64,000 bases of DNA, taken from NCBI GenBank assembly GCA_963514005.1, contig OY740804.1, positions 19,716,001-19,780,000 on the forward strand, written 5' to 3'. Both the position numbers and the translations under genes were made by a program. This document shows positions 3,317-38,696 of this stretch, piece by piece. The number at the start of each line of letters is the position of its first letter. Position 1 is the first letter of the stretch. The notes under the pieces were generated by a model. It made no database searches and was not told the DNA's origin. It saw only the letters and a list, made by a program, of their open reading frames with translations. This stretch comes from Raja brachyura. Taxonomy: Eukaryota.

Positions 3317-3646
3317 ATGTGGCTCAGGCTATCTGGATACCCTCCTATGTGGTGAATGCCAGCATCGGACAATCGATAACGTTGCGACCCCTTCTGAAGG
3401 CCCACCCTGAGATAATTCAGTGGGGTTACCGCCGGAGAAACGGGGAGCCTTCTATCACTCTGTGTGAGAAGATGGGCAACAGAAGCAGGATGTGCTTCTC
3501 ACCCTCCGCCACACGCATGGAGTTGTTGCCTGACTATGGACTGCAATTGTTCATGGTCAAGCCCTCTGACAATGGGCTGTATCGCATGGTAGTTTGGTAT
3601 ATCTGGGATGAGATGACACGCAGTGTCCTTCAACTGCAAGTGTACG
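3317..3646 (+). CDS. Gene A exon 2, IgV domain (CD2/SLAM/CEACAM N-type)
   Basis: Acceptor CCCCATCCAG|, donor TACG|GTGAGT, 330 nt. VNASIGQSITL, C-strand W, DNGLY, LQLQVY. Confidence 0.9.
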
Positions 3647-4329
3647 GTGAGTAGCCAGCTCTCTCTCCCCAGGTAATTGATGAGGAAAGGTAAAGGAGAG
3701 TTGGCAAGTGAGAAGCCAAAAACAAACTATAAGAGCTTCTACAGATTTATAAAAAGAAAATGGAAACTTAATCTGGACCTCTTTCATGCCGAGGTAGGAG
3801 ATATTGTATTGGTGAATAATGACAGGAATAAAACAAATATTTTATAGCCTTCTTGGTGGAGGAAGTCATTGAAAACCTCAGAAGAGAGTGGAGGAGAGCA
3901 GATTTATGTGAAATGTGCAGTCAAGATAATCAGCATCCAACACATTACAGAATCATTAATGGGACTGGAAAATGATCAATCTAATCTGACCCAACCTCTG
4001 AAACCCACCACCTCTATCACCTTAAGAACAAGGGTTGTAGATGCAGGGTTAGAAAGTCCTGCACTAACATGACTGCTCGTTTCCTTGACTGTTCGGTTGA
4101 GTTACTCCTGCACTTTGTGTCTATCTTAGCAAGTATATCAATTGCACTGTGGAACGCTTCCACCAGAAGGACTGCAGAATTTTAATAGATTTCAGCACCA
4201 CCTTCTCAAGATGAATAGTGCCTTTCAATTTCTACCTTTCAGGGGGAGTCAAGAGTCAAGAGAGTTTAATTGTCATATGGTGACAATTATGATAAACATG
4301 CTCAAGTTAATTGGAGTAGGTTGTTTGCG

Positions 4330-6760
4330 GGAAAAGGAATGTCTGGAAAGTGGGATGCTTTTAAAAGTGTGATGACAAGAGTTCACAGCATGCATGTTGC
4401 TGTTAAGAGTGCAGGGAAATGCAGGAGGGTGTAAGGAAGCTTGGATGACAAGGTAAATTAAGGCTCTGATCAGGAAAAAGAAGGGACAGGTATAGCCAGC
4501 TGGGATCAAGTGTATCCCTGGAGGAGTTTAGGGAATTGAGAATTAATCTGCAATTTGAGAGGGAGAAGGTGAAATTGGATGTGTTGGTGTTGTAGCTGAG
4601 CAAAGAGGACTGTAGAGGCATGAGGGAGGAGCTAGCCAAAGTTGACTGGAAAGGGACCCTAGCATGGGGTGACGGTGTAACAGCAATAGCAGGAATTTCT
4701 GGGAATAATCCGGAAGATGCAAGATCTTTTCATTCCAAAGAGGAATAAAGATTCTAGGGGGAGAAAGAGGCGACCGTGGCTGACAAGGGAAGTCAAGGAC
4801 AGTATAAAGCTAAAAGATAAGGCATATAACATAGCAAAGATTAATGGGAAGCCAGAGGATTGGGAAGCTTTTAAAGAACAACAGAAGGTAACTAAAAAAC
4901 CAAAACGGGGAGAAAAGATGAAATACAAAGGTAAGCTAGCCAATAATATAAAAGAGGATAGCAAGAGTTTCTTCAGTTATATAAAGAGTAAGAAAGAGGC
5001 AAGAGTGGAAGCTGGGCCGCTGGAGAATGATGCAGGAGAAGTGATAATGGGGGAAAAAGAAATGGCAGAGAAGTTGAATAACCTTTTTGCATCATTCTTC
5101 ACAGTGGAAGACGTGCTTGAAATGTGCTTGAAATTCAAGAGACTCAGTGGGTGGAAGTTAGTGGAGTGGTTATTACTAGGGAGAAGGTGCTTGGGAAACT
5201 GAAAGGCTGAAGGTGAATAAGTCACCTGGACCAGATGGACTGCAGCCTATGAAAGAGGTGGCTTTTGAGATTGTGGTGCCATTAACAGTGGTATTTCGAG
5301 AATCACTAGAGACAGGAGAGGTCCCAGATGATTGGAAAATTATCAATATTACCCCGCTGCATAAGCAAAGCAGAATAGTGGGAACTATAGGCCAGTTAGT
5401 CGAACTAACTAATATTTTAGAGTCCATTGTAAAGGATGAGGTTACGGAGTATTTAGAAGGTCATGATAAAATAGGCCAAATTCAGCATGGTTTTGTGAAG
5501 GGGAGATCTTGCTTGTCAAATTTGCTGGAATTCTTCGAAGAAGTAAATAGGAGGACAGACAAAGGAGAGTTAGCAGATGTTGTTTACTTACATTTTCAGA
5601 AAGCCTTTGATAAGGTGCCATATGTGAGACTGCTCAGGAAGATGAGAGCCCACGGTATCAAAGGGCAGATAATAGCATGGATAGCAGGTTGGCTGGATGG
5701 CAGAAATCAGTGTAGCAATAAAGGTGGCTGTTTCTGGTTGGCTGCCAATCCGCAGGGGTGGTGCTGTGGCCGCTACTCTTCACGTTGTATATTAATGATT
5801 TGGATGAGGGGATTGAAGGCTTTGTGGCCAAGTTTGCAGATGATATGAAAATAGATGGAAGGGCAGGTAGTGTAGTGAAAGCAGGGACTCTGCAGAAGGA
5901 CTTGGACAGGTTGGGAGAGTGGGCAGAGAAGCAGCAGATGGAATATAGTGTAGCAAAGTGTGGAGTCATACATTTTTGTAGTAGGAAAAAGTAATTTTAT
6001 AAACTTTTCTAAAAAAGACTATTTTCTAAATGGGGAGAGAATCCAGAAAATGGAGGTGCAAAGGGACTTGGGAGTGCTGGCGCATGGTTCCCAAAAAGTT
6101 AATTTGCAAGTCGAATCGGTAGTAAAGAAAGCAAACTCAATGCCAGCATTTATTTCAAGAGGGTTTATATACAAAAACAGGGATGTAATGCTGAAGCTCT
6201 ATAAGGCACTGATAAGGCCGTATTTGGTATATTGTGAGCAACGTTGGGCACCAAATCAGAGGAAGGATGTGCTGGCTCTGGAGAGGGTCCAGAGGAGGTT
6301 TGCAAGAATGATCCCAGCATGAGTAGGTTAACCTACGATGAGCATTTGTCGGCACTGGGCCTGTACTCGGTGGAGTTTAGAAGAATGAGGGTGAACCTCA
6401 TTGAAACATACAGAATAGTGAAAGGCTTGGATAGAGTGGATGTGGAGAGGAATGTTTCCACTAGTGGGAGAGTCTAGGACTAGAGGTCACGGGCTCTGAA
6501 TTAAAGGAGGTTCTTTTAGGAAGGAGTTGAGGAGACATTTATTTAGTCAGAGAGTGGTGAATCTGTGGAATTATTTGCCACATAAGGCTGGAGAGTGTAC
6601 GTCAGTGGATATATTTAAGGGAGAGATAGATAGATTTTTGATTAGTACAGGTCAGAGGTTATGGGGAGAAGGCAGGAGAATGGGGTTAGGAGGGAGAGAT
6701 TGAACGGTGGAGTAAACTTGATGGGCCGAATGGTCTAATTCTACTATCACTTATGACCTT
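4330..6760 (+). mobile_element. Decayed CR1 LINE (ORF2 RT region to 3' end)
   Basis: Frameshifted ORFs with [40 protein letters not shown]. Confidence 0.9.
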
Positions 6761-6769
6761 ATGAGAATC

Positions 6770-7330
6770 AGACTTAAAATGAAAATCAGAAGGGGAAAAA
6801 GTGGGTAGGAGATAGTTCTGGCAGATAATCTTAAAGAAAATCGAAGAAAGTACATGATCCAAGGGAGAAAATAGAATAAGTACATTAGAAGAAAGCGGGA
6901 GAGAGGGAATAGGCCTCCTCAGAAATCAAAGTGGTCATTTCTGTATGCAACTGTGGATGATGGATAAGGTCCTCAATCAGTATTTCTTCTCTGGTTTTAC
7001 CATGGACAAAGACATGAAGACTGGGAAACTTGGGGCAGTTAATGGAGATGTCTTGAGGGCAGTCCGTATTACAGTCCAGTGGGTGCTGGATCTACTAAGG
7101 TGTATGGCGGTGGATAAATCTCCCGAGCCTTATCAGAAAAATTTGAGGACACTTTTTTGAGGCTTGGGAAGAAATTGCAGGAGGCCTGGCTGAGAAGTGT
7201 GAATCATTGGGCACAGGTGAGATGCCAGAAGACTGGAGGCTGGTTAATGTTGTGCCTGCATTGAAGAATCTGTACGGAAAAGCCTGGGACCAGTTAGCCT
7301 AATGTTTGTGGTGGACAAGTTACTGGAGAG
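6770..7330 (+). mobile_element. Older CR1 fragment
   Basis: Degenerate VLNQYF, DKSP and PEDWR motifs. Confidence 0.65.
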
Positions 7331-7644: not shown

Positions 7645-7929
7645 AGCCGGTGATGAACGTCTCAATCCTGGTGAGTCAAGCAACGGAAAACAAGGCCTGC
7701 ATGCTGCATTGTCAGGTGTCGCATGGCACTGGACTGCAATTCGTGTGGCATGCTGCTGGCTGTGAGCTGACCTCCAACCGACTGCACAACATCACCGATA
7801 AAGGCAGCTCCCTCATTGTCTCCTCGGCCGCCATGCATTCCATCATCTACTCATTCTACCGCTGCACCGTCTCCAACCCTGTCAGCAAGCAGAGCATGGA
7901 GGTCAACCTGAAACGGGATTGCAGCACAG
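7645..7929 (+). CDS. Gene A exon 3, IgC2 domain of CD2/SLAM type
   Basis: Acceptor GCCTGTAG|, donor ACAG|GTCTGA, 285 nt. EPV..CMLHC..W..YRCTVSNPVS..C pattern typical of SLAM/CD2 C2 domains. Confidence 0.9.
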
Positions 7930-7949
7930 GTCTGACCCCTCACTAAGAA

Positions 7950-13899: not shown

Positions 13900-14135
13900 G
13901 GTTGGAGCTTCACTCTTTATCCACCGATGCCCTGGAAGTGTGTTATGGGAAAGCATAGAGGAAGCTTTACTGTGTCTAAACCATGCCCTGCGAGTGTGTG
14001 ATGGGACAGTGTAGAGGGAGCTTCACTCTTTATCTACCCATGCCCTGGAAGTGTGTTATGGAACAGTGTAGAGGGAGCTTCATTCTGTGTCCAACCTGTG
14101 CCCTGGGAGTGTGTGATGGAATAGTGCAGTGAGAT
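13900..14135 (+). repeat. ~62-bp tandem repeat, 4 copies; related copies at ~670-810
   Basis: GGAGCTTCACTCT..TATCTA.CC.ATGCCCTGGAAGTGTGTTATGG.ACAGTGTAGAG repeated. Confidence 0.75.
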
Positions 14136-14181: not shown

Positions 14182-14319
14182 GGTTTGATGTGAGGTCATT
14201 ACCAATCTGGGCCTTTATACTGATCGGAATCTTTGGCGTTATCCTAACATTCCTCCTGTTCTTTTTCATCTTCTTGTTCTGGTGCAGGGACATGAGATGG
14301 TTCCTTCGTAGCAGACTAG
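14182..14319 (+). CDS. Gene A exon 4, transmembrane segment
   Basis: Acceptor GCATTGCAG|, donor CTAG|GTAAGT, 138 nt. GFDVRSLPIWAFILIGIFGVILTFLLFFFIFLFWCRDMRWFLRSRL. Confidence 0.88.
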
Positions 14320-14867: not shown

Positions 14868-14947
14868 CCTGGTTCAGTCCGCCAATGTCCCAGTACCCGG
14901 TTTTTAGCTCCGTTGTGGCTGTTCAGCATACCCAAGTAACTTCATGA
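14868..14947 (+). CDS. Gene A cytoplasmic exon, short-tail option AWFSPPMSQYPVFSSVVAVQHTQVTS*
   Basis: Strong acceptor CCTTTTCCCTTCCTTAG|, phase 1. Confidence 0.5.
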
Positions 14948-15087
14948 AGGTGAGGTTAACTCCTGACTGGGAGAGTTCAGGATGGGGCAGGAAGAGGGTT
15001 GGTGTAGAATACATGGATCTGGTGTGGCGTCCTGAGGACACTGAGCCAGACTACTCTGAACTTCCAATGTGGCTCTGCCCTGTGTGA
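14927..15087 (+). CDS. Gene A cytoplasmic exon, long-tail option with VEYMDL and PDYSEL tyrosine motifs
   Basis: Weaker acceptor GGCTGTTCAG| in phase 1 gives AYPSNFMKVRLTPDWESSGWGRKRVGVEYMDLVWRPEDTEPDYSELPMWLCPV*. Confidence 0.55.
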
Positions 15088-15324
15088 GGAACCCTTCTCC
15101 TTCTTATATAAATATATGTAGGCAGGAGGAGGCTGTTCAGTCCCTCTCCAGCCTGTTATACGGGGACACGAGGAGGCAACTCAGCCCATCTCCAGCCTGC
15201 TAGTAGCAGACAGGAGGGCCGTTCATTCCCTCTCCAGCCTGTTATACGGGAACAGGATGAGGCCATTCAGTTTCATGAACGAGGAGATCTTTCAGGTCCT
15301 TAAGCTTGTTCCTACCTCCAATTA

Positions 15325-19779: not shown

Positions 19780-19954
19780 CTCGAGCGTCGACCGTTGAAG
19801 CAGCGGTTTAAACCGCGGGCACGAGCGGATCCAAAGTGAGCTCTGATTGGCGATTCGCCGGAGGGCGGTGGCCCGACCGAGCGGGTGCTTCCCATTGGTT
19901 GATGGAGGCGGGAGGGGGCGCGGAGGCATCGCGGCCGTCAGTTGGCGCCGCGCG
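19780..19954 (+). promoter_or_regulatory. Gene B CpG-island promoter
   Basis: CpG-dense; ATTGG at 19846 and 19894; GC-box-like runs before the ATG. Confidence 0.6.
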
Positions 19955-20009
19955 ATGGCCGTCCCTGTCCCCGTCCCCGCCCTCAGCGTTCTCATGGTGT
20001 TGTGCGCCG
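19955..20009 (+). CDS. Gene B exon 1, signal peptide MAVPVPVPALSVLMVLCA
   Basis: GCGATGG start, hydrophobic leader, phase-1 donor GCCG|GTAAGG. Confidence 0.82.
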
Positions 20010-21849: not shown

Positions 21850-24440
21850 CGGGGGTCAGGGTGAGGAATCGTGTCACTGGCTGGGATACGGTGAGGATTC
21901 GTATCACAATCCAGGATTAGGGTTAGCGGCTATGTTACTGTAGGGTCAGCAAGAGGGGTCATGTTATTGGCTGTCAGGTGAAGGAATATTGTTCTGATTC
22001 AGGGTGAGATGCCATATCACTGTCTGGTTTGGGATAATGCATTGTTTCCAGGTCAAGGTTGGTGTAAAGTATCACTGTTGGTGTTATTGTCCAGTTTCGG
22101 TGAGAGTAGTCATGTCACTGTCTGGATTTAGGGGTCGTATCATGGTCGGATTCAGAGGTCATGTCACAATCAGGGACTAGGTGAGAGGGGTTGTATCACG
22201 ATCCAGGGTTGTTTTGAGGAACCAAGTCGTATCCATAGTTGGCATGGGGTGATTTGTCATAGTTTGGAGTTTATGTGAGGGGTTATAGTTCTATCCTTCA
22301 TCAGGCTGAGTTGTCACTGTGCGGGTCAGGGTGAGGGGTTGTGTCACTGATTGCATTGGTCTGAGGGTTTGTGTCGCTGACTAATATCCTGGTGTGGGAT
22401 CGTGATAATGTCTGTCGTCAGGTTAGGGGATATATCACTGTCAAGAGTTGGATTGAGGGATTATACCACGTCTTGTTCAAGAATAAAGAGCATGTCACTT
22501 TCTAGCTGAGGTGAGATGTTTTATCATCTTCTGAGGTTGGAATGAAGGATCATATCACTAGTTGTGGTCAGGGTGAGGGTGAGGGCTTGTGTCATTGTTC
22601 AGGGTACGGGTAAGGGTTCATGTCACTATCCAGGAACAGGGTCATTTGAGGGATCATGTCACTGTCAGGCAGGCACGTGCTGTCAGGGTAGGCAAGGTAG
22701 GCACTGCCTACCCTGACTAAAATTATAACATAGTAATTACTAAATATAAATAGGAAAGGCATGGGAGAATTATGCCTATGTAAGAGATCGATCTCTTAGG
22801 TAGGCATAATTCTCCGTGCCTTTCATCCGCAGTGCTTGTAACACGGGAAGGTCTGTGCAGCCCTGTGAAGGTCTGTCAGCGCTGCCTGAAGCCATCAATT
22901 TCAAGCGGGGCTGAAGGCAGCAGAAATTCTGCCTTTGCAGCACTGCGCATGCGCTGCGCAAGTTTCATGGCGGGGTTTTCAAATATTGTTTGTCGTATAC
23001 CAATGATGTGGTAAGTACATTTCTTGGTGATGTTTTTAAATACCGTATTTCCCAGGGTGTGGGGGTGGGGGGGGAGAGCTCCTTGCCAAGCATTTGGGGA
23101 GTCTGGCCTGGGGTAAAGTTGCGAGGAGGGCACGGATGTTATGAAGGAGGGGATTGGGATAATGCCACCGCATTGAGGCTGGGGGGGGGGGGGAGAGAGA
23201 AGTAGCTCGGGTGGTTGAGCGGCCGCAGGGCCGGACAGCGGAACCAGCCGCCACCTTAGCTCCTTCTACCGGTCCTCGCTCACCTCTGGCAGCTCTCCGT
23301 CTAAAAACCTCTCTCCTGCCACTCGCTGGCCTCACTCATGTCCTTAAATTCCGACAGCGCAATTGAGGTTACTCGGCTGTAGGAATTTAAGGATTTGGAG
23401 GAAGCCGCTGACATGAGCGAAGTCGGCGAACGGCAGGTGACAGGTGTTCCGACGAAGAGCACTGCCAAACGTGAGCGGGCCCGCAGAAGGCGCTGAAGTG
23501 GCGGCCAGTTCTGCGTCGGGTCCCGGTGGCCGCTCGTAGCTCCCCGAGCTGCTTCTATCCCCAGCTACAGTGCGTGGCTTCGCGCCCGGAGAGCTGCGGT
23601 AGTGGTGAGTGAGTGAGTTACTGGCAGTATCCCCGACACCCTCCTTCTCAACACTCGTGCACTCCCCACAACTTTACCCCTGGCACAGACTCTCCACACG
23701 CTGTGAAAGGAACTGTTTCCCCCAATTGGTCCCTTGAACAAGTGTTGTCATTCAATAAGATGACAACTGATTCAACTATTCCCTGTACTCCCGTTTTTCC
23801 CACCATCTCTCCATCTGCCATCACCCTTCGCACCCCACCCATTCAGCAATTCAGAATAAAGAAGACTAGGAAGCCTTGGGCAAATTGAATTGTCACTGTT
23901 TTTATTTTTTTAACGGAGAGAACAATCTGCGCATGCGCGGTTTAGATTTTTTTTAAGCCGACTGAGTGCCTACCCTGAGTAATTACTCACGGCACGGGCC
24001 TGCTGTCAGGGTAAGAATGTGAGTTCCTTCCATTGTCAAGACTCTGGCTACGGGTTGTGCAAGGTCAGGGTGAGAAGTCATGTTGCTATCAGAGTGAAGG
24101 GTCAGCTCGCTGTCCAGGGTCAAACTGAGGTGTCATGTTGTTGGCGGGGTGATGGTTATGTCACTGTCCAAGTCTATAAGAGAGGTTGAGGTGCCTCGGG
24201 TCAAAGTGGGATGTTGTGTCACCACGCAGGGTTTGGGCGAGACATCACGTCACACTTCAAGGTCGTAATGTGGGGGGAGGGGGCGATCATATAACTGTTT
24301 GGGGTCAGAGTGAAAAGTCGTGTCGCACAGGGTTAAGGTTGTTCACTGTCCGGGTCAGGGTTAGGACAATACCACTGTCCACGGTTCGGATGAGCGGTCA
24401 TGTCACTCTCTGGGTTTGGGATAAAGTGTCATGTCACTGT
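21850..24440 (+). repeat. Degenerate ~31-bp tandem repeat (GTCATGTCACTGTCCAGGGTCAGGGTGAGG-like), split by a hAT element; also at ~25300-25880
   Basis: TGTCACTGTC and AGGGTGAG cores recur periodically upstream of both V exons. Confidence 0.6.
22670..24002. mobile_element. Non-autonomous hAT transposon, copy 1
   Basis: TIRs CAGGCACGTGCTGT / ACGGCACGGGCCTG; 8-bp TSD CTGTCAGG at 22662-22669 and 24003-24010. Confidence 0.9.
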
Positions 24441-24493
24441 CTTGAGTTTGGAGTGAGGGTTCGTGCCACTATCCATGTCATCCTCAGTCCCAG

Positions 24494-24823
24494 GGCTGGC
24501 TCACGGCATCACACTTGGCACGGACTATGCATGTGCTCGGTTGGACTCCAAAGTCAGCTTTCCTGTCAGTCTGAAGAAGGAGCCCACCTTCCTGGAGTGG
24601 AGCTTCCGTAAATCGCCTCGCTCCACACCTTCTGTCATCTGCATCTGGTACCTGCCCGACCAGCGGGAGTGCCGGGGTAGCTACACGAACCGGGCGCACA
24701 TCTACATCAACGGCACACTGTTGCTGGGCTCAATCCGTGCTGCTGACTCCGGCTGGTACTATCTCCATGCCAAGTTCAGCCAGGACCGAAGCATCCACCA
24801 CAAAGTGCAGCTATATATTTTCG
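24494..24823 (+). CDS. Gene B exon 2, IgV domain 1
   Basis: Acceptor GTCCCAG|, donor TTCG|GTGGGT, 330 nt. LEWSF, NGTLLL, DSGWYY, VQLYIF. Confidence 0.9.
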
Positions 24824-25940
24824 GTGGGTGAGGCTGCATCTCCATCCCATTCAACCCATCCATCCCCACCAGCCACCATATCCTGTCTCTATTTCCCTGC
24901 CACCTCACTGCCTCTCTGATAACTTACTGTGTGCCAGTCAACCACCTCCTGTCCCACTCTTACTCATCGCTCATTCCTTCCCTCCATCCTGCTCAAAATC
25001 CCTACATCCTGCTCTGCATTTTGGCAGTTAATCCTATTCCAAACATCATCCTCCTAATCACTACCCCTCCCCTCCTTGCACTTCCTTCAATGTCTGCCTT
25101 CTCTCTCACCTCACTCTGCTTGTGTTGTGCACCACATCCTTTCCCCCTGTTCCACTTTCACATCCTTTATCCGCAAATCTCAGCTGACCCCCCCCCCCCC
25201 CCCCTCTGTCTCGCTTTCCTGGATCAAAGAAATGACGGGCGAGGGATCAACCTTGTCTCAATCCAGGGTTGGGGGTAGAGGGGTTCATTAACTTCGATCA
25301 GGGTGAGCTCTGTAGCCGTCCCACATCAGGATTAGGCATAATGTCACTATCCAAGGCTGGGGTAAAGAATGTAACTGTCTGTAATTAGGGTTAAAGGTTT
25401 GTATCACTATCCAGAGTTGGGATGAGGGGGTCACAACACTCCGAGGTCAGTGTGACGGGTCATGCTACTGTCTGGGTTCAGCAAGGGAGCACATCACTGT
25501 CCAGTTCAAATTAAGAGGCCATGGTCATTGTTGGTTTGCTACGAGTTGTCAGGTCCTAGGGGTGAAGATAAAGGGAAGATCGTAGCCACTGCCTATGATC
25601 AGGTTTAAGGTTCAGTCATGCGATTACTGGCCAAGGTAAGGAATCAGGGTAATAGTCCAGTGTTGGGGTGAAGGGGGACAGCCATGTTCCAGAGTCAGGA
25701 TCAATGGTCCAATGTTGCTATGAGGGATTGGGGTAATGATCCAGAGTCACAGTCTGAGATTGGGGTGAAAAGCTGGGGTCACTGCCTGCGATGAGGAGAT
25801 ATTCTATCACTGTCTAATGTCAGGCTTTGGGCTCACTGATAGCTGGGTCATGAGTTTGTCAGGGCATAGGGTTGACAGTAGGGGACATAGGTAGACTGCT
25901 ATGCCATCACCCCTTGCTCCCTTCGTCCCCTTGCTCCCAG

Positions 25941-26270
25941 GCCAAGTCTGTGCAACTGCATTGGTCAATGACTACAGATGTAGTCGGGTGAACGTCAATA
26001 CCACCCTGTCCGTCCATCTGAAACAGGCGCCCACCGTCCTTCAATGGACCTTCCGCAAGTTGCCAAAATCCCAGCCCTCTGTCATCTGTACCTGGAACCC
26101 GAATGACAAGCAGGAATGCCATGGTATCTACAAGCAACGGGCACACATCTACAACAATGGCACACTGGTGCTGGAGTCAGTCCGTGCAGCTGACGCTGGC
26201 TACTACTGCCTACACGCTGAGTTTAGCAAAGGGAAAAGCATCTTCTTCAGCATGCAGCTATATGTTTTTG
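25941..26270 (+). CDS. Gene B exon 3, IgV domain 2
   Basis: Acceptor TTGCTCCCAG|, donor TTTG|GTGGGT, 330 nt; close paralog of exon 2. Confidence 0.9.
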
Positions 26271-27503
26271 GTGGGTCAGGCTCTCAATTCCAGTCCGTCC
26301 CTAAAGCTCCATGCCACTGCCTCTGTATCCTCCTGCTATCGAGCTCCACCTTGCCATCCTCACCACTGCACGACCTCTCTGATCACCTCCACTCCACACA
26401 AGCCAAATGTCTCTCTGTCCTCGTCTCTTCACCCCACTATGAACCATCCATTTACTGCAGCTCTCTGCCTTATGTACCCCTACTGTTCCACAGCATTACC
26501 TTTGTCCCTCTCTACATCGCTCCCTTCTTCCCACTCCTGATCTCCCTACCTTTATCCAACTCCACATTCCAAACAACTCTTACATGTCCCTGTTTCACTC
26601 TGCATTGCTACCTCTATTTGGCACCTACATCATTCTCCATCACACTCTAGCTTCCTCAGTCCCCCAGAGTATCTGTCCTATTGTCCTTCAGTGTCTGATC
26701 CAGCCATCCCCACTCTGACCCAGCCTTTCCCCCAAATTTGGAGCCGCCGTCCATACCCGACACTCCGCTGCCATGGACTTCCCCACCCTGCCTCAGCACC
26801 AAGCACAGTCCCCCATGCCCAGCACCTCGCCCACACATCTGCTCCTCGAACAAGCCTTGTACCTTGCCCACCCAATCACGTCTCACCCCTCCCCCACTCG
26901 CCTCTCCCCACCATTCGTCCCTCTCCCACTCACCCACACCTTGCACCTCCGACACCCAATCGCACCTTCGCCAAGACGCATCTCTCCCCCACCCACAGCC
27001 CTCCCTTCCCCACTCGCCACTCCCCCAAGACGACCCTTCCTCTCCCATTGACACTCCCGCCCATACCTCCTACCTCACGCATCCACCACCACCTCTTCCA
27101 CACCTCGCTCCCCCACCCACGTTTCCCCCACACCCTGTAACTGTTCTCCCACGCTTGGCACCTCACCTAAGCCAAGGACTTCCCCCTACCACAGCTCTGC
27201 AGACCTACCCCCTCCCCCCACGGACACTCCTCCCTCTTCAAGGTGGACCTAACCACCCACCCACCCGCTCGCTCCGCCTTAGGCGCAGACTCCTCAACCC
27301 CTCAACTGTCACCTCCACAGTGCAGAGGTGCAGACCTCACCAACCCACCCCTTCTTCCTCCATCTGGACAAACCCCCCACCCATCTACCCCTCATTCCTA
27401 GGCATAACCTGCACAACCCGCTCCTCCACCCATGCCATAACCTTTTTTCCCACCCTCCCATGACTGCTTTGATCACTACTAAAGAACATTCTTTCCTTTT
27501 CAG

Positions 27504-27577
27504 CCTCCTCATCGAGGACAGTTCGATCACCACTTCCACTGCTTCTCGGACTGATGCTGCTGAAATGCTCCCTGTAG
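27504..27577 (+). CDS. Gene B exon 4, probable GPI-anchor signal ASSSRTVRSPLPLLLGLMLLKCSL*
   Basis: Acceptor TTCTTTCCTTTTCAG|, phase 1. Small residues, spacer, hydrophobic end. Donor AAG|GTAAAC at 27596/27597. Confidence 0.78.
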
Positions 27578-27939
27578 TGACTGAGTGGGATTAAAGGTAA
27601 ACGTTCCAGAGCATTATCAACAGCTGACAGTCCCAGAACCCATGAACTCGTCCACCCTCTTAATCTGCCCAATGCTCAAGCGCTCTCCCCTTTCAGACTT
27701 CCCACCTACTATATCCCCCATAGTCTACTAATTTGCTCCCTATTACCATCTCCCCATCCCATTGATTCTCCTCCCTCAGTTCATTGCAGACTGTCCCCAT
27801 CCATTGAATCCCCTCCCACAGTCCAAGGACACCCGTCCCCTTCTCCGATTTTCCCCATGTTAAATTGCACTTACCCCTGTGTTCTGAATGCCTCGTCAGC
27901 AAACTGTTTGACAACTCCTGCCTTTTTATTGTCCCACAG

Positions 27940-28370
27940 GACGTCCCAGTCTGAACCGTGATCCAAGCTGACGAGATCCAGCAGACGGTTGAGGATTTTC
28001 TCGTCACGGAAGCCGGAGCCCTTTCCATTGGAAAGGTGTGAATGTGGGCAGCTGGGAGTGACCGCAAGACCCTGGTGACACTGGACCAGGAACCCCATCT
28101 GACATCTCGATCTGATGCTGTCTGCTGCCCCCACCCCATTAGACCCCATGGGGTGTGGGGCAGTTCCCTTCCCCTACCCCTCCTGAGGTCAAACTCTGCC
28201 TGTCTGCACTTATACTTACCCTGGGCGGAAAGAGTGAAGTACCTCCAGAATTTACCCTCTGTGGGGACTGTGGGAGAGTTGTGGAGAAGAGAAAGTGTTG
28301 TGGGAGTGGGAAGGGTTCCTGGATTGGGGTGTAGTGAAGCTTCAACTCATCCAAATAAAACGCTAGATAT
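27940..28370 (+). other. Gene B terminal (3' UTR) exon with polyA signal
   Basis: Acceptor GTCCCACAG|; AATAAA at 28354; homologous to 48210-48661. Confidence 0.7.
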
Positions 28371-29534
28371 TAATGGATTCTCATTGTCCGCTCCTCTTCA
28401 TTTTAGGCCATATAGCTGATACCAGCAGAAGTGGAGAGGACACAAGGACTCAGAGTTCACTCCTGATGTTTTCTGCATTGAAAACTGCTTGTAGCTACCT
28501 CCTTGTATTCTGACCATGGCCTGTTAACATCGCTGTCACCTCCTCCCTCTCTTGAGCGCCTCACTTTAATGACACGCAACTGGCGCGCATCATGTTTTTT
28601 GCATGAGCAGGCTTACTGGACCAAAGATGTGTGCCTATGCCCAAGCACTCTGAAGTAGGAAGTGGGTATCAACTGCTTAGTAGAACCGCCGAGCAGAGAT
28701 AAGGCAACCTTACATCCAAGCAGATAAAGGAGCACAATTCATTTTTGATGTATATAAAATTAACGATATGGGGAAGCTGAGCAATAAAGGATGTTTATCC
28801 TGCTTGGGGGCAAAGCTAATGGGCCTGAAGATAGACACAAAATGCTGGAGTAGTTCAGCGGATCAGGCAGCATTGCTAGAGAAAAGGAATATGTGACGTT
28901 TCGGGTCAAGACTTCTTCAGTATTTTGTGTCGATATTTGGTGTAAAGCAGCATCTGCATTCCATTGTTACACACTCTAATGAGCCTGACTCATTTTCCCC
29001 ACCTTGTCACTACTGTAGATACTGCCATTTCAAGTTTCTCACTTTTTTAGAGGGTGGGACACACACTATGAATCATTGGACCCCATGGAGTATTGAGGAG
29101 CAGAGGGATCTAGGTAGTGAAGAAGGTGTAAGGAACGTCCCCTCCTCCTCCTCTTCCCCCCTCTCTCCCCCACACCCACCCCCTCCCCCTCCCCCCATGC
29201 TGCTCAGTTAGCCATCTCTGCCAGTGCCTACAGCAATTGTAAGGGAAACTGACTGTATCCAAAGTCGGCAGCGACTCTCATTCCCAAATGATGGGCGATT
29301 CCATTGTATCATCAGCACGGCACCACTTCGTTGGCACAGCCGAGACCAAAGATGGCAGAGATTGCAAAACGAAATGCAGGAGTAACTCGGCGGGACAGGC
29401 AGCATCTCTGGAGAGAAGGAATTGTGACATTTCGGATCGAGACCTTTCAGGCCAAAGATCAGAGAGCTCCGCTCTATAACCTTTGCTTCAGAAGAGGCCT
29501 GCTCGGTCTGGCAGAGTCAGAGCACGCTGTGTTA

Positions 29535-29770
29535 AAGAAGGAACTGCAGATGCTGGAAAATCGAGGGTACACACAAAGCTGGAGAAACTCAACGGGTGCA
29601 GCAGCATCTAAGGAGCGAACGTTTCGGGCCGAAACCCTTCTTCAGAGGTCTGAAGAAGGGTCTCGACCCGAAACGTCGCCTATCTCCTTCGCTCCTTAGA
29701 TGCTGCTGCACCCGCTGAGTTTCTCCAGCTTTTTGTGTAACCCACCCTTCTTCAGACCCTTTTTGTGTAC
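29535..29770. mobile_element. Penelope terminal repeats in inverted orientation
   Basis: ~29570-29646 is the near-perfect reverse complement of ~29649-29740. Confidence 0.75.
29646..29681 (+). ncRNA. Minimal type I hammerhead ribozyme motif (Penelope-associated)
   Basis: AGGT-CTGAAGA-A-GGGTCTCGACCC-GAAA-CG-TC-GCCT: intact core, stem II, palindromic ACGT helix III, 4-bp stem I. Confidence 0.7.
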
Positions 29771-29809
29771 CCTCAGAGCAAGCTGTGGTTGGTGGAGAGC
29801 TGCTGTGGC

Positions 29810-30032
29810 GACGGGCACTGCGCCAGCTGCGATTGGTGGAGGCGGGCGGAACGGGGAGGATGCTGATTGGATGGAGCGGGGTGAGCGAAGATTGGAGGAA
29901 AGGGGGGAGTCCGTCGTAGTTGGTGGAATTGGCGGAGACCGTGGGCCAATTACAGCTGGCCAGGCGGAAGGAAGGGGGAGCAAGATGTGATTGGTGGCGG
30001 TGCACGCGCCGGACCAACCCCCGGCCTTCGCC
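29810..30032 (+). promoter_or_regulatory. Gene C promoter with six CCAAT boxes
   Basis: ATTGG at 29832, 29866, 29891, 29928 and 29990; CCAAT at 29946; CpG-rich. Confidence 0.65.
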
Positions 30033-30072
30033 ATGATTGCCGTCCTCGGGCTCCTCTTGGCTTTTTGGGCCG
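30033..30072 (+). CDS. Gene C exon 1, signal peptide MIAVLGLLLAFWA
   Basis: GCCATG start, hydrophobic leader, phase-1 donor GCCG|GTAAGG. Confidence 0.85.
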
Positions 30073-30419
30073 GTAAGGCGAGGTCTTCATCCCCAACTCG
30101 TTCCCCATCAAACTCCCCTCACCCTGCCTCCCACTGACTTCCATTCCTCCTTCTCAAGGAATAGGAGGGCACCTGGAGACAAGTGACATGGTCAGGCAGA
30201 GTCAACGTACATTAATGGTCAAACCGTCGTCGACAAATGATTTTTTAAAAACTAGCAGATGAAGGGAAACCAGTGGATGTGATGTATATGGACCTTGAGA
30301 AACCTTCCCTCAAGCCGTCTACACTTCCCCATGTGTCCTATTTGCCTCCCCAACCACACCCTTTTTCAAACTCCCTTTTTTGTTCGAATTCTTGTGTCTT
30401 GTTTCCTCTCCGTTTCTGT

Positions 30420-31655
30420 TTCGTTTATTGTCACGTGTACCTCGGTACAGTGAAAAGCTTTTGTTACGTGCTAACGACTCAGCAGAAAGATTACAACCGT
30501 GCCGTTTACTGTATGGATACATGATAAGGGAATAACGTTTGGTGCAAGGGTAAGCCAGTAAAGTTCGATCAAAGATGTGTTCTAGGGTCACCAATGAGGT
30601 AGATAGTAGTTCAGGACTGCTCTCTGGTGGTAATTGCAGTGAAGAAAGCGAATGGTATGTTAGCTTTCACAGCAAAAGGATTTGAGTATAGGAGCAGGGA
30701 GGTTCCACTTCAGTTGTATAGGGTCTTGGTGAGACCACACCTGGAGTATTGCGTATAGTTCTGGTCTCCAAATCTGAGGAAGGACATTATTGCCATAGAG
30801 GGAGTGCAGAGAAGGTTCACCAGACTGATTCCTGGGATGTCAGGACTGTCTTATGAAGAAAGACTGGATAGACTCCGTTTATACTCTCTGGAATTTAGGA
30901 GATTGAGAGGGGATCTTATAGAAACTTACAAAATTCTTAAGGGGTTGGACAGGCTAGATGCAGGAAGATTGTTCCCGATGTTGGGGAGGTCCAGGACAAG
31001 GGGTCACAGCTTAAGGATAAGGGGGAAATCCTTTAGGACCGAGATGAGAAGGACTTTTTTTCACACAGAGAGTGGTGGGTCTCTGGACCTCTCTGCCACA
31101 GAGGGTAGTTGAGGCCAGTTCATTGGCTATATTTAAGAGGGAGTTAGATGTGGCCCTTGTGGCTAAGGGGATCAGAGAGTATGGAGAGAAGGCAGGTACG
31201 GGATACTGAGTTGGATGATCAGCCATGATCATATTGAATGGCGGTGCAGGCTCGAAGGACCGAATGGCCTACACCTGCACCTAATTTCTATGTTTCTATG
31301 GTATGATGAGTCAGTTGCCTGATAATAGTTCAGAAGAAACTATCCCTGAATCTGGAGGTGTGCGTTTTTACACTTCTATATGTTTTGCCAGAGGGGAGAG
31401 GAGGGAGTGGCCAGGGTGCGACTCGTTCTTGATTATGCTGCTGGTCTTGCTGAGGCAGCATAAGGTATCAATTGAGTCAATGGAATTGAGGTTGGTTTGT
31501 GTGATGGTCCTGGGGTGCATCCACAATTCACTGCAATTTCTTGCGATCTTGGATGTAGTTGTCCCCAAACCAAGCTATGATACATCCTGATAAAATGCAT
31601 CCTTTGACACATCTATGGAAGTTGGTGAGAGTTGTTGGGGACATGCCGAACTTCC
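30420..31655 (-). mobile_element. Rex1/Babar-like LINE 3' fragment interrupted by a CR1
   Basis: Minus ORF ending SIIKNESHPGHSLLSPL resembles the Rex/Babar ORF C-terminus. Confidence 0.55.
30636..31300 (+). mobile_element. Young 5'-truncated CR1
   Basis: Highly similar to 10499-11170, with TTTCTATG tail. Confidence 0.95.
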
Positions 31656-33199
31656 TAAAGGGCCTGTCCCGCTATTTGCGAGTTTAGGAGAGTTTGCGCT
31701 CGTCACAAGCTCACAGCATGGTTGACACATGGTCGTAGGCTGTCACTGGCAGGTCTCCTTCATAGTCGAGAGGAGTTCCCGCATAGTGGTTACTATTCAT
31801 GGCCTCTGTTTGGTCGAGGAAAATCTTTCAACAAGGCGAAAATTTTTCTGCAAGTAAAAATTGGTCGGCATGGAGAAAATTGATACTTTTGAACTCATAG
31901 TGCAGTGGTAGTGGGGTCACCATGTCGTTGTAGGTAGTCGTCGTCGCCGTAGGTAATCTCCTTTGCTGACCGGGCATTTTAATTGGCTCATTGGGGAAAA
32001 AAACATAAGCAAGAGTTTTCAAAACCAAGGAAAACCAACCGGTAATGTTAAATGCCCGTTAGATTTCACAGCTGTGTATGTTTGGCTTATTAAAAGTTGT
32101 CTGGCTTCTTAAAAGTGTCTCCACTCCTTCTCCCCCCCTTCTCTCCCCTTTTGTTCAGGGCCATAGAAAATAGGTGCAGGAGGAGTCCATTTGGCCCTTC
32201 GAACCAGCACTGCCATTCATTGTGATCATGGCTGATCATCCCCAATCAGTAACCTGTGCCTGCCTTCTCCCCATATCCCTTGATTCCACTAGCCCCGAGA
32301 GCTTGTGAGTGGCCAGAATGAGGCCACTCACAAGTGGGAGAACAGAACCTCGTTTTTTGCTTGGGTACCTTACAGTCCAACGGTATGAACATTAAATTGT
32401 TTTATTTCAAGGAAACTTTGCCAATCACGCCTCTTTTTTCCCTGACTCTACCTTGACACTGGTACGTACACAAGCCTCCCTGTCCTCTCTAACAATATAC
32501 CACCCTCTGGCTTCACATTTCACAACTCTTTTTTTGAATTGAATTGAATTGAATACTTTATTGTCATATGTGACAAGTCACAGTAAATTCTTTGCTTGCA
32601 TACCCAAGGTATGCAAATGGCTCCACAGCTCAAACTATTCCTACTTTGAAGAAGTTCTCTTCTCTCTGATGTGAGTGCCGTGAGACCCTCTCTCATTGCT
32701 GCCACTCTATGATACCTGTTGCTCTCCTGCTCTTTGTCCATCTTCTGACTTAGATTTGTTACTCCAGCCACATGTACTTCCTCAGCAATGGCCTTCATCA
32801 CCATCTTGTCCCACCTGGCTTCCAGCTCCAGGCCTTCAGGTTCGAGCCCAACAACAGTCTAAGGTATCTGCATTCCATGTACCACTTCTTGCAACAGTTC
32901 TCCCTCCTCGCCCGAGAACAATTGCCTCTGCTAGGTCGTACTGCTTCGCAGCCACCTCCAGACCATGGGCCATAACATAACCACTGCTGGGCCCTGCTGC
33001 CCTTCCTCCTCCCTCCTACTTACCCTTCCCCTACCCCCACCACCCCACACACACCCTTCTCCTCTAAATCCCCGTCTTCCCTCCATGGTACCTCTGCTGA
33101 ATCCCCCCTCGCCTCTCTGCCTTCCTCAAAACTTGTTTGCACCAAGCCCCAACTTCTATCACGTTGTCCCCAGCCCCCCTGCCCTCCCCTCTCCAATGC

Positions 33200-34500
33200 T
33201 GTGATCTGTCCTTAGCTGAGGTCTTACCTTCTGTGTACCCTCGTGTCCACACTTAGTTCTGAACCCGCCATGATGTCAAGCTCATCATCCATCGCCTCCA
33301 GGCCAACTTCTCAGCCAAGGAATCCTGGTTCCTTCACTGACAACACCTTCTCTTGTCTCCAACACTCCTCTTCTTCCTGTATTCCCTCTGCCAGCCTTCT
33401 TCATTCTCTCAACCTCTCTCATCTCCCAACTGCCTGTGCAATATAAACCACCTTGATTTCTCCTCTCCCCATACCCACTTCAATCTTACCCCCTCGAATG
33501 CCCAGCCCTCCACTCAGTACCAATTCCAATATTGTCATCAAGGGAAATGCCGATATAATCTGGCAGGCTGACCTCTACCAATTTGACCCCATGTGCCAGC
33601 TCTCTGAAATCTGCTTATACTACTCCTCGACCATGACTCCGCTGATGATCGCCTGGCCATCATATCACAAACGATCATCAATCCTATTTTCGCCGGCGAT
33701 CTCCCCATCACAGTCCCCAACCTTATAGTTCCTCAACGCTGCACCGCCTGCTGATATTTAGACTTCACTCCTTCCCACCCTGCTTCCTGTAAAGACTCTA
33801 TCCCTCCTCCCAATTCCTCCATCTATGCCGCATCTGCACCCACGATGAGGTTTTCCATACCAAGTCATCGAAGATGACCTCATTCTTTAGGAAACGGGGG
33901 TTCCCCTCTTCAATTATAGATGAGGCTCTCACTAGGGACTCCTCGATATCCCGCAGTTCCGCTCTTGCTCCCTCTCCCCCAATTCTTAACAAGGACAGAG
34001 TCCCCCTGGTTCTCACCTTCCACCCTGTCGGCCGTCGCATACAGCATATAATCCTCCAACATTTTTGCCACCTCCAATGGTATCCCACTACTGGCCACAT
34101 CTTCCCATCTCCACCCCTTTCTGCTTTCTGCAGAGACCGTCTCCTCCAACCGTAGGAGATGCAATACCTGTCCCTTTACCTTCCCCTTGACTCCCTCGAT
34201 GAACCCCCAACAGTCTTTTCAAGTGAGGCAGAGGTTCACTTGCACCTCCTCCAACCTCATCGACTGTATCCGCTGTTCCAGGTGTCAACTCCTGTACATC
34301 GGCGAGACCAAGCGCAGGCTCGACGATCATTTTGCTGAACATTTCCGCTCAGTCCATCTTAACCTACCTGATCTCCTGTTTGCTCAGCATTTCAACTACC
34401 CCTGAAGAAGTCTGAAGAAGTTTCTCGACCCGAATCGTCACCCATTTCTTCTCTCCAGAGATGCTGCCTTTCCCACTGAGTTACTCCAGCATTTTGTGAC
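33200..34500 (+). mobile_element. Decayed Penelope-like element (RT C-terminus, GIY-YIG, terminal repeat)
   Basis: MTSFFRKRGFPSSII..RVPLVLTFHP; FTCTSSNLIDCIRCSRCQLLYIGETKRRL; degenerate hammerhead at ~34412. Confidence 0.85.
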
Positions 34501-34772
34501 TGCCTGTTTCTATCTCCTTCCCAAAATATATAAACGGTGCTGCCCTGGAAAAGTCATTGTTCTGCCAGCTCCCGCACTACCAAATACCTCGGCTCTATCT
34601 AGTTGTCTCCCTCCCCCCCCCCCCCCCCCCCCCCCCCACAGTCCCTTCAACCTACATCCAAGATACCTCCCACACTCTTTAACACATTAATAACTTCCAG
34701 TTTCTAGAGCCCCATCACCTCATCTTTACCATGGATACCCTGTCCTTTTAAATCTCCATTCCCCATCAAGAG

Positions 34773-35075
34773 AGCACAGTGGTGTAGCTATAGAGTTGTT
34801 GTCTTACAGCGCCTGAGACCTGGGTTCGATCCTAAATCTGGGTGCTTATCTGTACGGAGTTTGTACGTTCTTCCTGTGTCCTGCATGGGTTTTCTCTGAG
34901 AACTTCGGTTTCCTCCCACACTCAGGTTTGTAGGCTAATTGGCTTGGTATAAATGTAAAAATAGTCCCTAGTGTAGGATGGTGTTAATGTGCAGTGATCG
35001 CTGGTTGGTGCAGACTCGGTTGGCCGAAGGGCCTGTTTCCATGCTGTATCTCTCAACTAAACAAAACTAAACTAA
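34773..35075 (+). mobile_element. tRNA-derived V-SINE (HE1-like)
   Basis: A-box-like TGGTGTAGCTATAG, B box GGGTTCGATCC, central TGTACGGAGTTTGTACGTTCT, LINE-like tail GGCCGAAGGGCCTGTTTCC and (AAACT)n. Confidence 0.8.
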
Positions 35076-37980
35076 TATTTCTCACCAACCTAGTCAGCCC
35101 GTGCCTATCCCCCACCTCTTAACAATCATCTCCTATTCCTACTCTCATATTTCCCTTTTATCCACCCTCTTTCCCCACTCCCCCGTTCCCATCCACCCAT
35201 ATATTTTCCTCTGGATTTACATCTTATACCTCCTCTTTATTTATTTGACACCTTTTTCACCTCTAGCCTTTTGTCACATTCCACCCATCTGCCAATCACC
35301 CACTCCCTTTACATGTATCCACCTATCACTTGCCAGACTTTTTCCCATGCCCATCCTTCTTTTGCAGCTTTCTGCCCCCTACCCGAAAATGTGTCTGACC
35401 AATCCCTCCAGGGAGGCTGCCTGACCCGCTGAGTTCCTTCAGCACTTAGTTTTTTTGTTCAAATTTGCAGCATCCGCCAATGTGTTGTCTTCTCGTTCTT
35501 CATCAACGTAATCCCCCATCCAGCCTTTACTCCTCCCTCCTAACTATCCCCCCAACTTTCAGACCTCCCTCTACCTTCCAGGCCATTGCTTGTGCTTCCT
35601 TCTCTCGCTTCATGCAAATATACATTGAACTCTCCCTCTGATCTTCAATATGACTTCAACCCTTATGAGCCTTCTGTTCTTATTAGCCTCCCCTTAGCAC
35701 TCTCCTTCTATACTCCAGTACCACTCACAAACCCATATATGATCCGTTATATCTTATTAGCCTCCACCCACCTCTCTGTCTCCATCCTACATAATCCTTT
35801 CCTTCAGCTCACCCACAACTGCACCCACCACCATTCCCTCTAACTTGCTTCCATCCTGCCTTCCGATCCTTGTCCATTCCCTTTGATGAACCCTCAGTCA
35901 ATCTGTTCCATCACCATTTATTCCTACTCTCCATCCCATAGTCCCTCGCACTAACATCCTGCTCTCTGACACTATCTTCAACCCTCTTGCATGCTTCCCA
36001 CCAACACAATCTCTTTTTCCTCAAATATTCCCTCTTGCAACACCCCCTCCTTTCCTCCAAAGTTCCTTTAATCTGATTCCCAACCAGATTCTCCTTCCAT
36101 CCCTCTGATTCCCTACATCTGCCACTCCCTGTTGCTTTCTTGTATACTTCAATGCTTCCTTTCAGTATCTTCCTTTAACTTCAGCTGAACATTTCCCTTG
36201 ATTGCCACCCCAATCCCCTCTCATTCAACCTAACCCTCCTTTAATGCCTCCCGTGGTCCTCCCTCACATCCTCTATCCAAAATATAATCCTCTCCTCCGA
36301 TGTTCTAATGATTTGGCCACCTTCAATGCAAAACCAATCTCTTGCTCAGACCTTTGCACAAATCCTCGCTTGATCACTCCAAAGGTGTTTAGATCAATAT
36401 TTATAACCCTCTTTCAATTTATTTCTCTATTTTCTGCCCTATTCAGTCCAACCTTACATCTTCAGTCTCTTCCTGCAACTCTCATTCAAGCCCAACCTCA
36501 ATTCTTACCGACCCATCCATTGATCACTTCTTCTAGCCCTTATCCCCTCCCATCAACGATCTCTCCATCCTTCTAACTAAGTGGTTCCTTTAATCCTATC
36601 TCAATCCCACCTCAATGCCTCTTTGGGCTCCTTCCCATTACCTCCTACAGTACTTCTCGCCGGTGCCATAATTTCCTTGCATCCAACCACTGTCCATGAC
36701 CAGGGTTCCTGTCCTACTTGTACACTTGCCCAGGCTCGGGTTCTGGTGCCCCTGTACACTTGCCAAGGTTCCTGATCCCATGGTCGCGGTTCACTCTTTG
36801 GGGCCTCATGTTGGGGTACCGAACTCTCTCCAGTATTGTGTTCCCTGACTGCTCCCCCTGACACGTTCCTGCAGCCCCTACCACCCCCTCCCTCAATGGC
36901 CCCTGCCAGACCTCCCCCCCCTCTCCCCATCCCCTGAACCCCTTAACATCCCCCATGGACCACACCCCCCCCCCCCCCCCAACCCATCCAGACCAACCAA
37001 CACCAACCACCACTTGACTCCCCATTCCCAACAACATGTTTCCCCTGACCCCACCCAACGCCACTCACAAACCTCCTGACCCTCCCTATACTCAAGGATT
37101 TGTCTCACCCAGGATCTTTCTCTTTATCTTTTCCATCCCTTCCCCCACCCCAGGTTTGTTACTTAGCTCATTACCCACGCCCACCTGGCTTCAACTTCTC
37201 ACCATCCCCCATCTCAATTGGTTCCTCCTAGTAGCTCCTGGCTCTCCTCCCTCTCATCTCTTTACACCAGCTTTCTCCCCTCTCCACTCTCAGTCTTGAT
37301 TCAGAACCTCAACCCAAAATATTGAGCATCCTTCTGCCTCCACAGATGCTGCTAAACTCCAAGCTCCTTCAACAGTTTTATTTTTGCTCCTTGGTCATCA
37401 AATGGTATAATTCTGCTATTCTCTCCTCCCTCAACCTCATCTGCAACCACATATCCATGTTCCTACCTCCTCCCTCTCTCCCTCGTCATTCTCTTTTCTC
37501 ATCATCCCCTCTCTCTACACTTCTCCCTTCTTCCTGCTCCCTGCAGTTAATTCTCCCCATCCACTCTTCTTCTGTTACGGCTTCATCTTTCACCCACCTT
37601 ATTCCTTTCGGGAAACATTTCTCTCTGTGCCATCTTCTTTTCAGTCCCTCATTCTGTGTCCACCATCCCCAATTTTTCATGTCTTTCTCTCCTTCTCAAC
37701 CTCTTACCTCACACCATGTCTCCCTCTCATACCCTTTCTTCCATTATTTTCCTTATATCTTGTCGCTCACTACTCAGCTCTCTATACCCCGTTCCCACTC
37801 TCTCTTCCATTCTTTTGACCTTTCCAAATGCCCCCCTTCACGTCTGCCCCCCTTTCCTTCCATCCCTCTCCCGCCCCCTTGCCGCCCCTCGCCCCCTTGT
37901 CCTCACGCCCTGATCTGCCTGTACCCCCTCCCCTTTACTCTCTTTCTATTCCCTCCCCTTTCTTTCTACCTCCCCTCTAA

Positions 37981-38290
37981 AGGGCCTGTCCCACTGTACA
38001 AAGTAATTCAAGAGTTCTCCTGAGTTTCCCCTGATTCAAACTTGGAGAATTACGGTAATAGCTGCTCTTAGGTACTCGGGGCTCTCGTGGACACGCTCCG
38101 CACCTGTTGAAAAAACTTTACGAGCTTACCGCGTTTCCCGAGTACCTACCGTTAGCGTTACAAGCCGCTAAGAGACGTCCCAAGCTCTGACGTACCCGCT
38201 ACGTTCATTTTACGTACTTGCCACAAGTTTGATTTTTTTTTTTAAACTCGGGAGAGCTCTTGGGTAAACTCATCTAGTGGGACAGGCCCT
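37981..38290. mobile_element. PIF/Harbinger MITE
   Basis: Perfect 15-bp TIR AGGGCCTGTCCCACT and TAA TSD on both sides. A related left end starts at 31659. Confidence 0.88.
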
Positions 38291-38366
38291 TAACACTTTG
38301 TTTATTCTATCTCTCCCTCCTTCCACTCCCCCCCCCAAACCCCCGCCCCCCATACCCTCTCTGCAG

Positions 38367-38696
38367 GCAGGACCGAGGCTGTGATGTTCCACACCGAGTA
38401 TCTGATGGGGAACATTAATTCAAGAGTGGTCTTCCCACCCATGACGAACACGGAAGCTATCTCCCTTACCTGGACCTTCCGTAAATCGACAGGTTCGAAG
38501 CCAACACCAGTGTGCATTTGGTACTTCAGCTACCCCATCAAATGCTGGGGGACCTACATCAAGCGGGCTAAGCCACACGGCGACGGCTCCCTGACCATCA
38601 CGCAGCTGCGGCAAACTGACAGCGGCTGGTACTATCTCATTGCCAACATGGGATTCAACAGGGTGATGAACCGAAGGCTGCACCTGTCTGTGCAGA
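38367..38696 (+). CDS. Gene C exon 2, IgV domain
   Basis: Acceptor CTCTCTGCAG|, donor CAGA|GTGAGT, 330 nt. LTWTF, DGSLTI, DSGWYY, LHLSVQ. Confidence 0.9.

What the first reader, a model, noticed from the sequence alone, without database searches (positions are those of the whole stretch)
3317..38696. Shared non-canonical W-x13-C-x9-C signature in four IgV domains
Seen: the V exons of A, B1, B2 and C are all exactly 330 nt, lack canonical B/F cysteines, and carry W-x13-C-x9-C (CEKMGNRSRMC, CIWYLPDQREC, CTWNPNDKQEC, CIWYFSYPIKC). The 9-residue loop is variable. Gene D's V has no Cys. Inference: a disulfide staples the C'-C'' hairpin next to the GFCC' face that CD2/CEACAM members use for binding, defining a distinct V subfamily with a constrained variable loop.
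Basis: partly seen in the sequence, partly recalled or inferred. Interest (0 to 1): 0.75.

Follow-up and report, generated by a model that had tools for sequence, protein, structure and literature searches.

The report
Shark-ray SLAM-like receptors with extra disulfide
Four outer domains of a cluster of CD2/SLAM-type immune surface genes carry a cysteine pair, kept in both rays and sharks, that likely forms a stabilising bridge across one edge hairpin; it is a real, apparently undescribed variant of a known family, and two of the genes are predicted to make unusual lipid-anchored proteins built only of such domains.

Summary
The motif is real. W-x13-C-x9-C sits at the same columns in the V exons of A, B1, B2 and C; canonical B/F cysteines are absent; D has no Cys. 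It recurs in 10 further V domains from 9 ray and shark proteins. AlphaFold models put the two Cys opposite each other on strands C' and C'', so a cross-strand disulfide is likely (distance not measured). Corrections: B1 has two acceptors, and spliced contigs of a close relative use the 336-nt form. The nine residues are a hairpin with a short turn; they differ between paralogues no more than other surface parts, are conserved among orthologues, and show no sign of positive selection. The same register occurs in carp CD2-like domains, and other Cys pairs occur in this region in eel, duck and gopher proteins, so the staple is not unique. The genes are CD2/SLAM-like: A is V-C2-TM with one ITSM-like tyrosine; B and C are predicted GPI-anchored and V-only, with B2 optionally spliced. 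A single elasmobranch clade is only moderately supported (78/90). Verdict: new variant of a known kind, moderate interest.

The parts
2565..2607 (+). Gene A leader exon (14 codons, phase-1 donor)
   Evidence: resembles leader of stingray orthologue P0018
3317..3646 (+). Gene A V exon, 330 nt; Trp codon 3421, Cys codons 3463 and 3493
7645..7929 (+). Gene A C2 exon (5 Cys, C-T-V-S-N-P-V-S motif)
14182..14319 (+). Gene A transmembrane exon
14868..14949 (+). Gene A cytoplasmic exon with one Tyr (S-Q-Y-P-V-F) and the stop; product 291 aa
   Evidence: orthologues 293 and 302 aa
19955..20009 (+). Gene B leader exon
   Evidence: inferred from sequence
24488..24823 (+). Gene B V1 exon; 336 nt from acceptor 24488 (used in contigs) or 330 nt from 24494; Trp 24598, Cys 24640 and 24670; extra Cys13
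25941..26270 (+). Gene B V2 exon, 330 nt, optional; Trp 26045, Cys 26087 and 26117; extra Cys3, Cys13, Cys89
27504..27596 (+). Gene B 93-nt exon: Ser-rich start, hydrophobic end, stop (predicted GPI signal)
   Evidence: three contigs hold exactly 93 letters between V1 and the 3' exon
27940..28380 (+). Gene B 3' untranslated exon, AATAAA at 28354
30033..30072 (+). Gene C leader exon
   Evidence: inferred from sequence
38367..38696 (+). Gene C V exon, 330 nt; Trp 38471, Cys 38513 and 38543
47450..47539 (+). Gene C 90-nt exon, homologous to B's 93-nt exon (predicted GPI signal); product 148 aa
48210..48680 (+). Gene C 3' untranslated exon, homologous to B's; AATAAA at 48656
53315..53360 (+). Gene D leader exon
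56649..56990 (+). Gene D V exon, 342 nt, no Cys (internal control)
62387..62662 (+). Gene D C2 exon (4 Cys)

Best explanation
These are CD2/SLAM-type V domains of a cartilaginous fish in which two conserved cysteines sit on strands C' and C'' and likely form a cross-strand disulfide that fixes the base of that hairpin in a domain with no canonical B-F bridge. The bridge is most likely structural: it would hold the C'' edge strand against the domain, probably with both side chains turned towards the core, while the residues between and beside the cysteines, and above all the F-G region, form a binding face that is specific to each gene and stable across species. Shown: motif, exon structure, conservation in rays and sharks, splicing of gene B in a close relative. 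Predicted: strand positions and register, GPI anchors of B and C. Inferred: the bond itself, its inward orientation, and adhesion or co-receptor function through the AGFCC'C'' face.
Against: No S-S distance could be measured and the models rest on 16 sequences, 13 of which carry the pair. Which side of the sheet the pair faces is not shown: two alignments to CEACAM differ by one residue. The fold searches do not single out CD2/SLAM: JAML and nectin-1 rank as high or higher, and CEA scores above SLAMF6 on summed domains. B and C lack the C2 domain that defines the family. The dN/dS figure for the loop rests on under 5 synonymous sites.
Confidence: 0.72

Rival explanations
1. One reading: the bridge presents a hypervariable loop for ligand or pathogen binding and marks one distinct V subfamily.
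For: Loop identity among the four paralogues is low (16.7%). All elasmobranch carriers group together in the best tree (78/90; 227 of 300 bootstrap trees). C'C'' loops matter for CD48-2B4 binding (PMC7472110, passages).
Against: The loop is conserved among orthologues and F-G varies more; six of the nine residues are strand in the model; the clade is not starred, A+B/C alone appears in 54 of 300 bootstrap trees, and carp carriers fall elsewhere in the best tree.
Confidence: 0.12
2. The pair is an old, shared feature of jawed-fish CD2-like domains, kept in elasmobranchs and carps and lost elsewhere; the window's genes are ordinary members of that wider group.
For: Same register (-35/-25 from the F-strand Asp) in 3 of 10 domains of grass carp P0002 and 1 of 4 of Carassius P0074, with x11 variants in most of the rest. 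A tree holding all carriers together is not rejected (p-AU 0.26).
Against: Carp domains lack the Trp and group with other ray-finned fish domains without the pair (95/89); 0 of 300 bootstrap trees unite them with the shark group. Different pairs in the same region (cyprinid x4, eel C''-D, duck double pair, gopher x6) suggest repeated invention.
Confidence: 0.1
3. The cysteines do not pair with each other but link chains (covalent dimers) or stay free.
For: B1 and B2 have odd extra cysteines; a CD2-related chicken protein, chB6, is a disulfide-linked dimer (PMC4031500, passages).
Against: The two Cys are always present or absent together in this group and face each other in both models.
Confidence: 0.06

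Closest known systems
SLAM/CD2 family (SLAMF6, CD84, 2B4, CD48, CD58, CD2)
   Same: N-terminal V without canonical disulfide; C2 with an extra Cys pair and an N-P-V-S motif in A and D; tandem cluster; transmembrane and predicted GPI-anchored members side by side; a tail Tyr that is a full ITSM in the catshark orthologue (definition from PMC12084948, passages).
   Different: C'-C'' Cys pair absent from the SLAMF6 and CEACAM sequences displayed; B and C have no C2 domain, whereas the family is defined as V+C2; A's tail is short with a degenerate motif.
CEACAM N domains
   Same: Cys-free core with Arg-Asp salt bridge residues (R66, D84 invariant), strong profile match, GPI members (recalled).
   Different: CEACAM constant domains have two invariant Cys (PMC4079198, passages); A and D have 5 and 4. 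A gopher CEACAM-like domain has a different x6 pair nearer the turn.
Carp multi-domain CD2-like proteins (P0002, P0074)
   Same: Cys pair at the same C'/C'' register in V domains lacking the canonical bridge.
   Different: No C-strand Trp, x9 or x11 spacing, many V-C2 repeats, separate branch in the best tree.
CD28/CTLA-4/ICOS, viral RL11/CR1 domains, and engineered IMGT 54-78 single-domain antibodies
   Same: A cysteine at what is likely the same C' site; the engineered 54-78 bridge raises melting temperature by about 5-20 C (PMC5763143, passages).
   Different: There the partner is on strand D, not C'' (CD28 and RL11/CR1 patterns recalled, not tested here; the equivalence of C49 with IMGT 54 is my inference).

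Membership tests
CD2/SLAM | N-terminal IgV-like domain lacking the canonical disulfide | tested here: met
   V-set hits, V fold in both models, no Cys at B or canonical F position
CD2/SLAM | Membrane-proximal C2 domain with two disulfides (genes A and D) | tested here: met
   C2 exons with 5 and 4 Cys; first and last align with the SLAMF6 extra pair; the bonds themselves are inferred
CD2/SLAM | Membrane-proximal C2 domain (genes B and C) | tested here: not met
   Only two C2 exons in the window; three contigs go from B1 through 93 letters to the 3' exon. B and C are tied to the group by V-domain similarity and position, not by architecture
SLAM (SAP-binding members) | Cytoplasmic ITSM, T-x-Y-x-x-V/I | tested here: inconclusive
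   Window gene A reads S-Q-Y-P-V-F, stingrays T-Q-Y-P-V-F, catshark T-Q-Y-P-T-I, a full match; D's tail lies beyond the window
CD2/SLAM | Self-binding or binding to a family member through the AGFCC'C'' face | not testable with these tools
CD2/SLAM | Synteny with the SLAM or CD2/CD58 locus | not testable with these tools
   No genome held; no flanking non-Ig gene was identified in the window
CD48/CD58-like GPI ligands | C-terminal GPI signal instead of a transmembrane and cytoplasmic part | tested here: inconclusive
   Small residues then a hydrophobic end (mean hydropathy of last 15 residues 1.77 and 1.69) and stop, conserved in frame between B and C; no GPI predictor was run
CEACAM | Constant domains with two invariant Cys | tested here: not met
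   A and D C2 exons carry the additional pair
Proposed new V subfamily | All carriers form one clade independent of the Cys columns | tested here: inconclusive
   A group 99/98 and B/C group 97/87 are each firm; union with Mobula P0060 78/90; 53 rows, 104 columns

The most novel reading that the evidence does not exclude
Sharks and rays have their own branch of the CD2/SLAM family, marked by a C'-C'' disulfide and older than the shark-ray split, in which a conserved signalling receptor (gene A, invariant W-Y-I-W-D-E on the F-G face) pairs with GPI-anchored V-only ligands (genes B and C) in the manner of 2B4-CD48, and gene B tunes its reach between cells by splicing one or two V domains.
Probability: 0.2. 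Interest if true: 0.65.

Novelty: new variant of a known kind. Interest (0 to 1): 0.38.

Why it matters
Cartilaginous fish are the oldest living group with antibody- and T-cell-based immunity, and their CD2/SLAM genes are annotated only by loose automatic names. A sequence signature that picks out two orthologous groups across rays and sharks gives a handle on the early history of this co-receptor family. It also shows that V domains without the canonical bridge have acquired substitute bridges at the C'-C''-D edge several times. GPI-anchored, V-only members would be a new architecture for the family and make a testable receptor-ligand proposal. It does not point to a new recognition mechanism.

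Full report
Observation. In the alignment of the four domains W35, C49 and C59 are among 10 invariant columns of 109, although pairwise identity to B1 is only 51, 34 and 18%. No canonical B- or F-strand Cys is present, and D's V domain has no Cys. The bare pattern is not rare (5 hits in six frames; shuffled mean 0.85, maximum 4 in 40 shuffles); what counts is its register in homologous exons. Two details need correcting. B1 has tandem acceptors; 3 of 4 contigs that cover it begin at 24487 and a leader spliced to 24494 could not extend the match that far, so the 336-nt exon is used in that relative. B1 and B2 also carry extra cysteines.

The genes. The window holds four tandem genes among LINE-like repeats. 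A is leader, V, C2, TM, short tail, 291 aa. D is leader, V, C2 and runs off the window. Only these two C2 exons were found. B and C end instead in homologous 93- and 90-nt exons that read small residues, then a hydrophobic run, then stop, the pattern of a GPI signal (pattern recalled, no predictor run). Contigs from four runs of one study of a close relative (9 differences in 338 letters) were laid on 19800-38900. The tool could only guess that they are RNA, but their joints fall on exon ends. In three runs one contig goes from B1 across exactly 93 letters to the 3' exon at 27940 and skips B2. In the fourth, separate pieces cover B1 (depth 40), B2 (depth 8.8) and the 3' exon; their overlaps (28 letters before B2, 29 after) fit B1-B2-small exon if the assembly word is 31 letters, which is my inference. 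So B likely makes a one-V and a rarer two-V form.

Relatives. A profile of the four domains against 1.84 billion representatives gave 1069 hits, of which the best 150 were returned; two of three word searches added more (one search found none). The exact motif is in 10 domains of 9 proteins: orthologues of A from Hemitrygon, Hypanus, Hemiscyllium, Scyliorhinus and one unnamed source; B/C-like proteins from Chiloscyllium, Stegostoma and one unnamed source; and both V domains of a Mobula SLAMF5-like protein. The window is therefore from a cartilaginous fish, probably a skate or ray (inference). Among the then 151 stored proteins, 450 F-strand motifs without canonical Cys were examined; 108 in 29 proteins had two or more upstream Cys. 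These include the same register in grass carp and Carassius proteins (x9 in 4 of 14 domains, x11 in the other 10), an x4 pair in many cyprinid domains, a C''-D pair in eel, a double pair in duck and an x6 pair in gopher. Extra bridges at this edge are thus a recurring theme.

Structure. Both models are confident V folds (pLDDT 91 and 93). In B1, C49 lies in strand 46-52 and C59 ends strand 56-59; with a three-residue turn the pairs are 52:56, 50:58 and 49:59. The nine residues are thus mostly strand, not loop. Coordinates are not returned, so the distance is inferred from the register. From recalled V-domain geometry, position 49 is the inward-pointing bulge residue of C' (IMGT 54, where an engineered bridge to IMGT 78 stabilises antibody domains; PMC5763143, passages), which suggests a core-side bridge; alignments to CEACAM leave this open by one residue. 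Fold searches return JAML, nectin-1, CD58, 2B4, CD48 and CD2 within about 2 Z units and so do not decide the family.

Variability. Loop identity is 16.7% among the four paralogues against 21.5% for other non-invariant positions, rank 12 of 91 windows; the F-G region is lower (12.5%). Among six A orthologues the loop is 68.9% identical against 63.5%, and F-G is 85% identical with an invariant W-Y-I-W-D-E. B1 and P0005 share 9 of 9 loop residues but 2 of 8 in F-G. For B1 against B2, dN 0.35 and dS 0.70 overall, 0.41 and 0.60 in the loop, on few sites. None of the 5 listed differences of the relative's B1 contigs falls in the loop; 4 more were not listed. The loop is gene-specific and stable, not hypervariable.

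Tree. 53 domains (17 chosen carriers and window domains, 36 picked from 106 non-redundant V-like domains of 271; no mammalian SLAM sequence was available), Cys columns dropped, 104 columns. A group 99/98 and B/C group 97/87 each hold rays or the window plus sharks, so both predate the shark-ray split. Their union with the Mobula protein is one side of a branch at 78/90, without D. Carp carriers sit with other ray-finned fish domains; forcing them in is not rejected (p-AU 0.26). One elasmobranch subfamily is plausible, not shown.

Comparison with known families. SLAM receptors are defined by a V domain without canonical disulfides, a C2 with two, and an ITSM; CD48 is GPI-anchored (PMC12084948, passages). 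A and D fit the ectodomain definition, with SLAMF6 the best match over a whole V+C2 stretch. A's one Tyr is a full ITSM only in the catshark. B and C fail the C2 criterion. CEACAM constant domains have two Cys (PMC4079198, passages), which A and D exceed. CD48 binds 2B4 through the AGFCC'C'' sheet (PMC7472110, passages). Nurse shark T cells express Cd2 and Slamf6 (PMC10529500, passages). Passages of PMC12051499, PMC4031500 and PMC3592999 were also seen and do not describe the motif. Ten paper searches listed no description of it; coverage of subscription journals is poor.

Verdict. The signature is real and conserved, and most likely a structural C'-C'' disulfide in elasmobranch CD2/SLAM-like V domains (0.72). 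The 'variable loop' reading is not borne out and the staple is not unique. The more unusual result is the predicted GPI-anchored, V-only design of B and C beside a conserved receptor. New variant of a known kind; interest 0.38.

Noticed in passing
window 27504-27596 and 47450-47539: Genes B and C end in homologous short exons that look like GPI signals, with the stop 19 and 13 nt before a last intron; neither gene has a C2 exon.
   Followed up: partly
window 25941-26270: B2 is an optional exon: three contigs skip it, one run holds it spliced at lower depth. Its Cys3 would lie in the linker next to B1's spare Cys13, a possible inter-domain bridge; Cys89 sits one residue before the canonical F position.
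   Followed up: partly
window 3586-3612: The F-G stretch of gene A (W-Y-I-W-D-E) is invariant in six orthologues from rays and sharks, an aromatic patch that suggests a conserved binding partner.
   Followed up: partly
window 14868-14949: Gene A's tail has one conserved Tyr; the motif is a full ITSM in catshark and degenerate in rays and in this window.
   Followed up: partly
P0027 (duck, CEACAM5-like annotation): Six V domains with a long C'-C'' hairpin carrying four Cys (C-x4-C-x10-C-x3-C), probably a ladder of two cross-strand bridges.
   Followed up: no
P0002, P0074, P0006, P0033, P0023 (carps, eel): Large fish CD2-like proteins use at least three different Cys pairs in the C'-C''-D region (x9/x11, x4, x3).
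   Followed up: partly
window 22670-24010 and 42890-44130: A non-LINE interspersed repeat present twice, with matching ends in inverted orientation that suggest a small DNA transposon.
   Followed up: no
window 140-443, 13904-14126, 15123-15271, 48790-49037: Minisatellite arrays (periods 34, 57, 44 and about 24).
   Followed up: no
window 27647-28225 and 47900-48483: The last intron end and 3' untranslated exon of B and C are 77% identical, more than their V exons, which points to a shared origin or later conversion.
   Followed up: no
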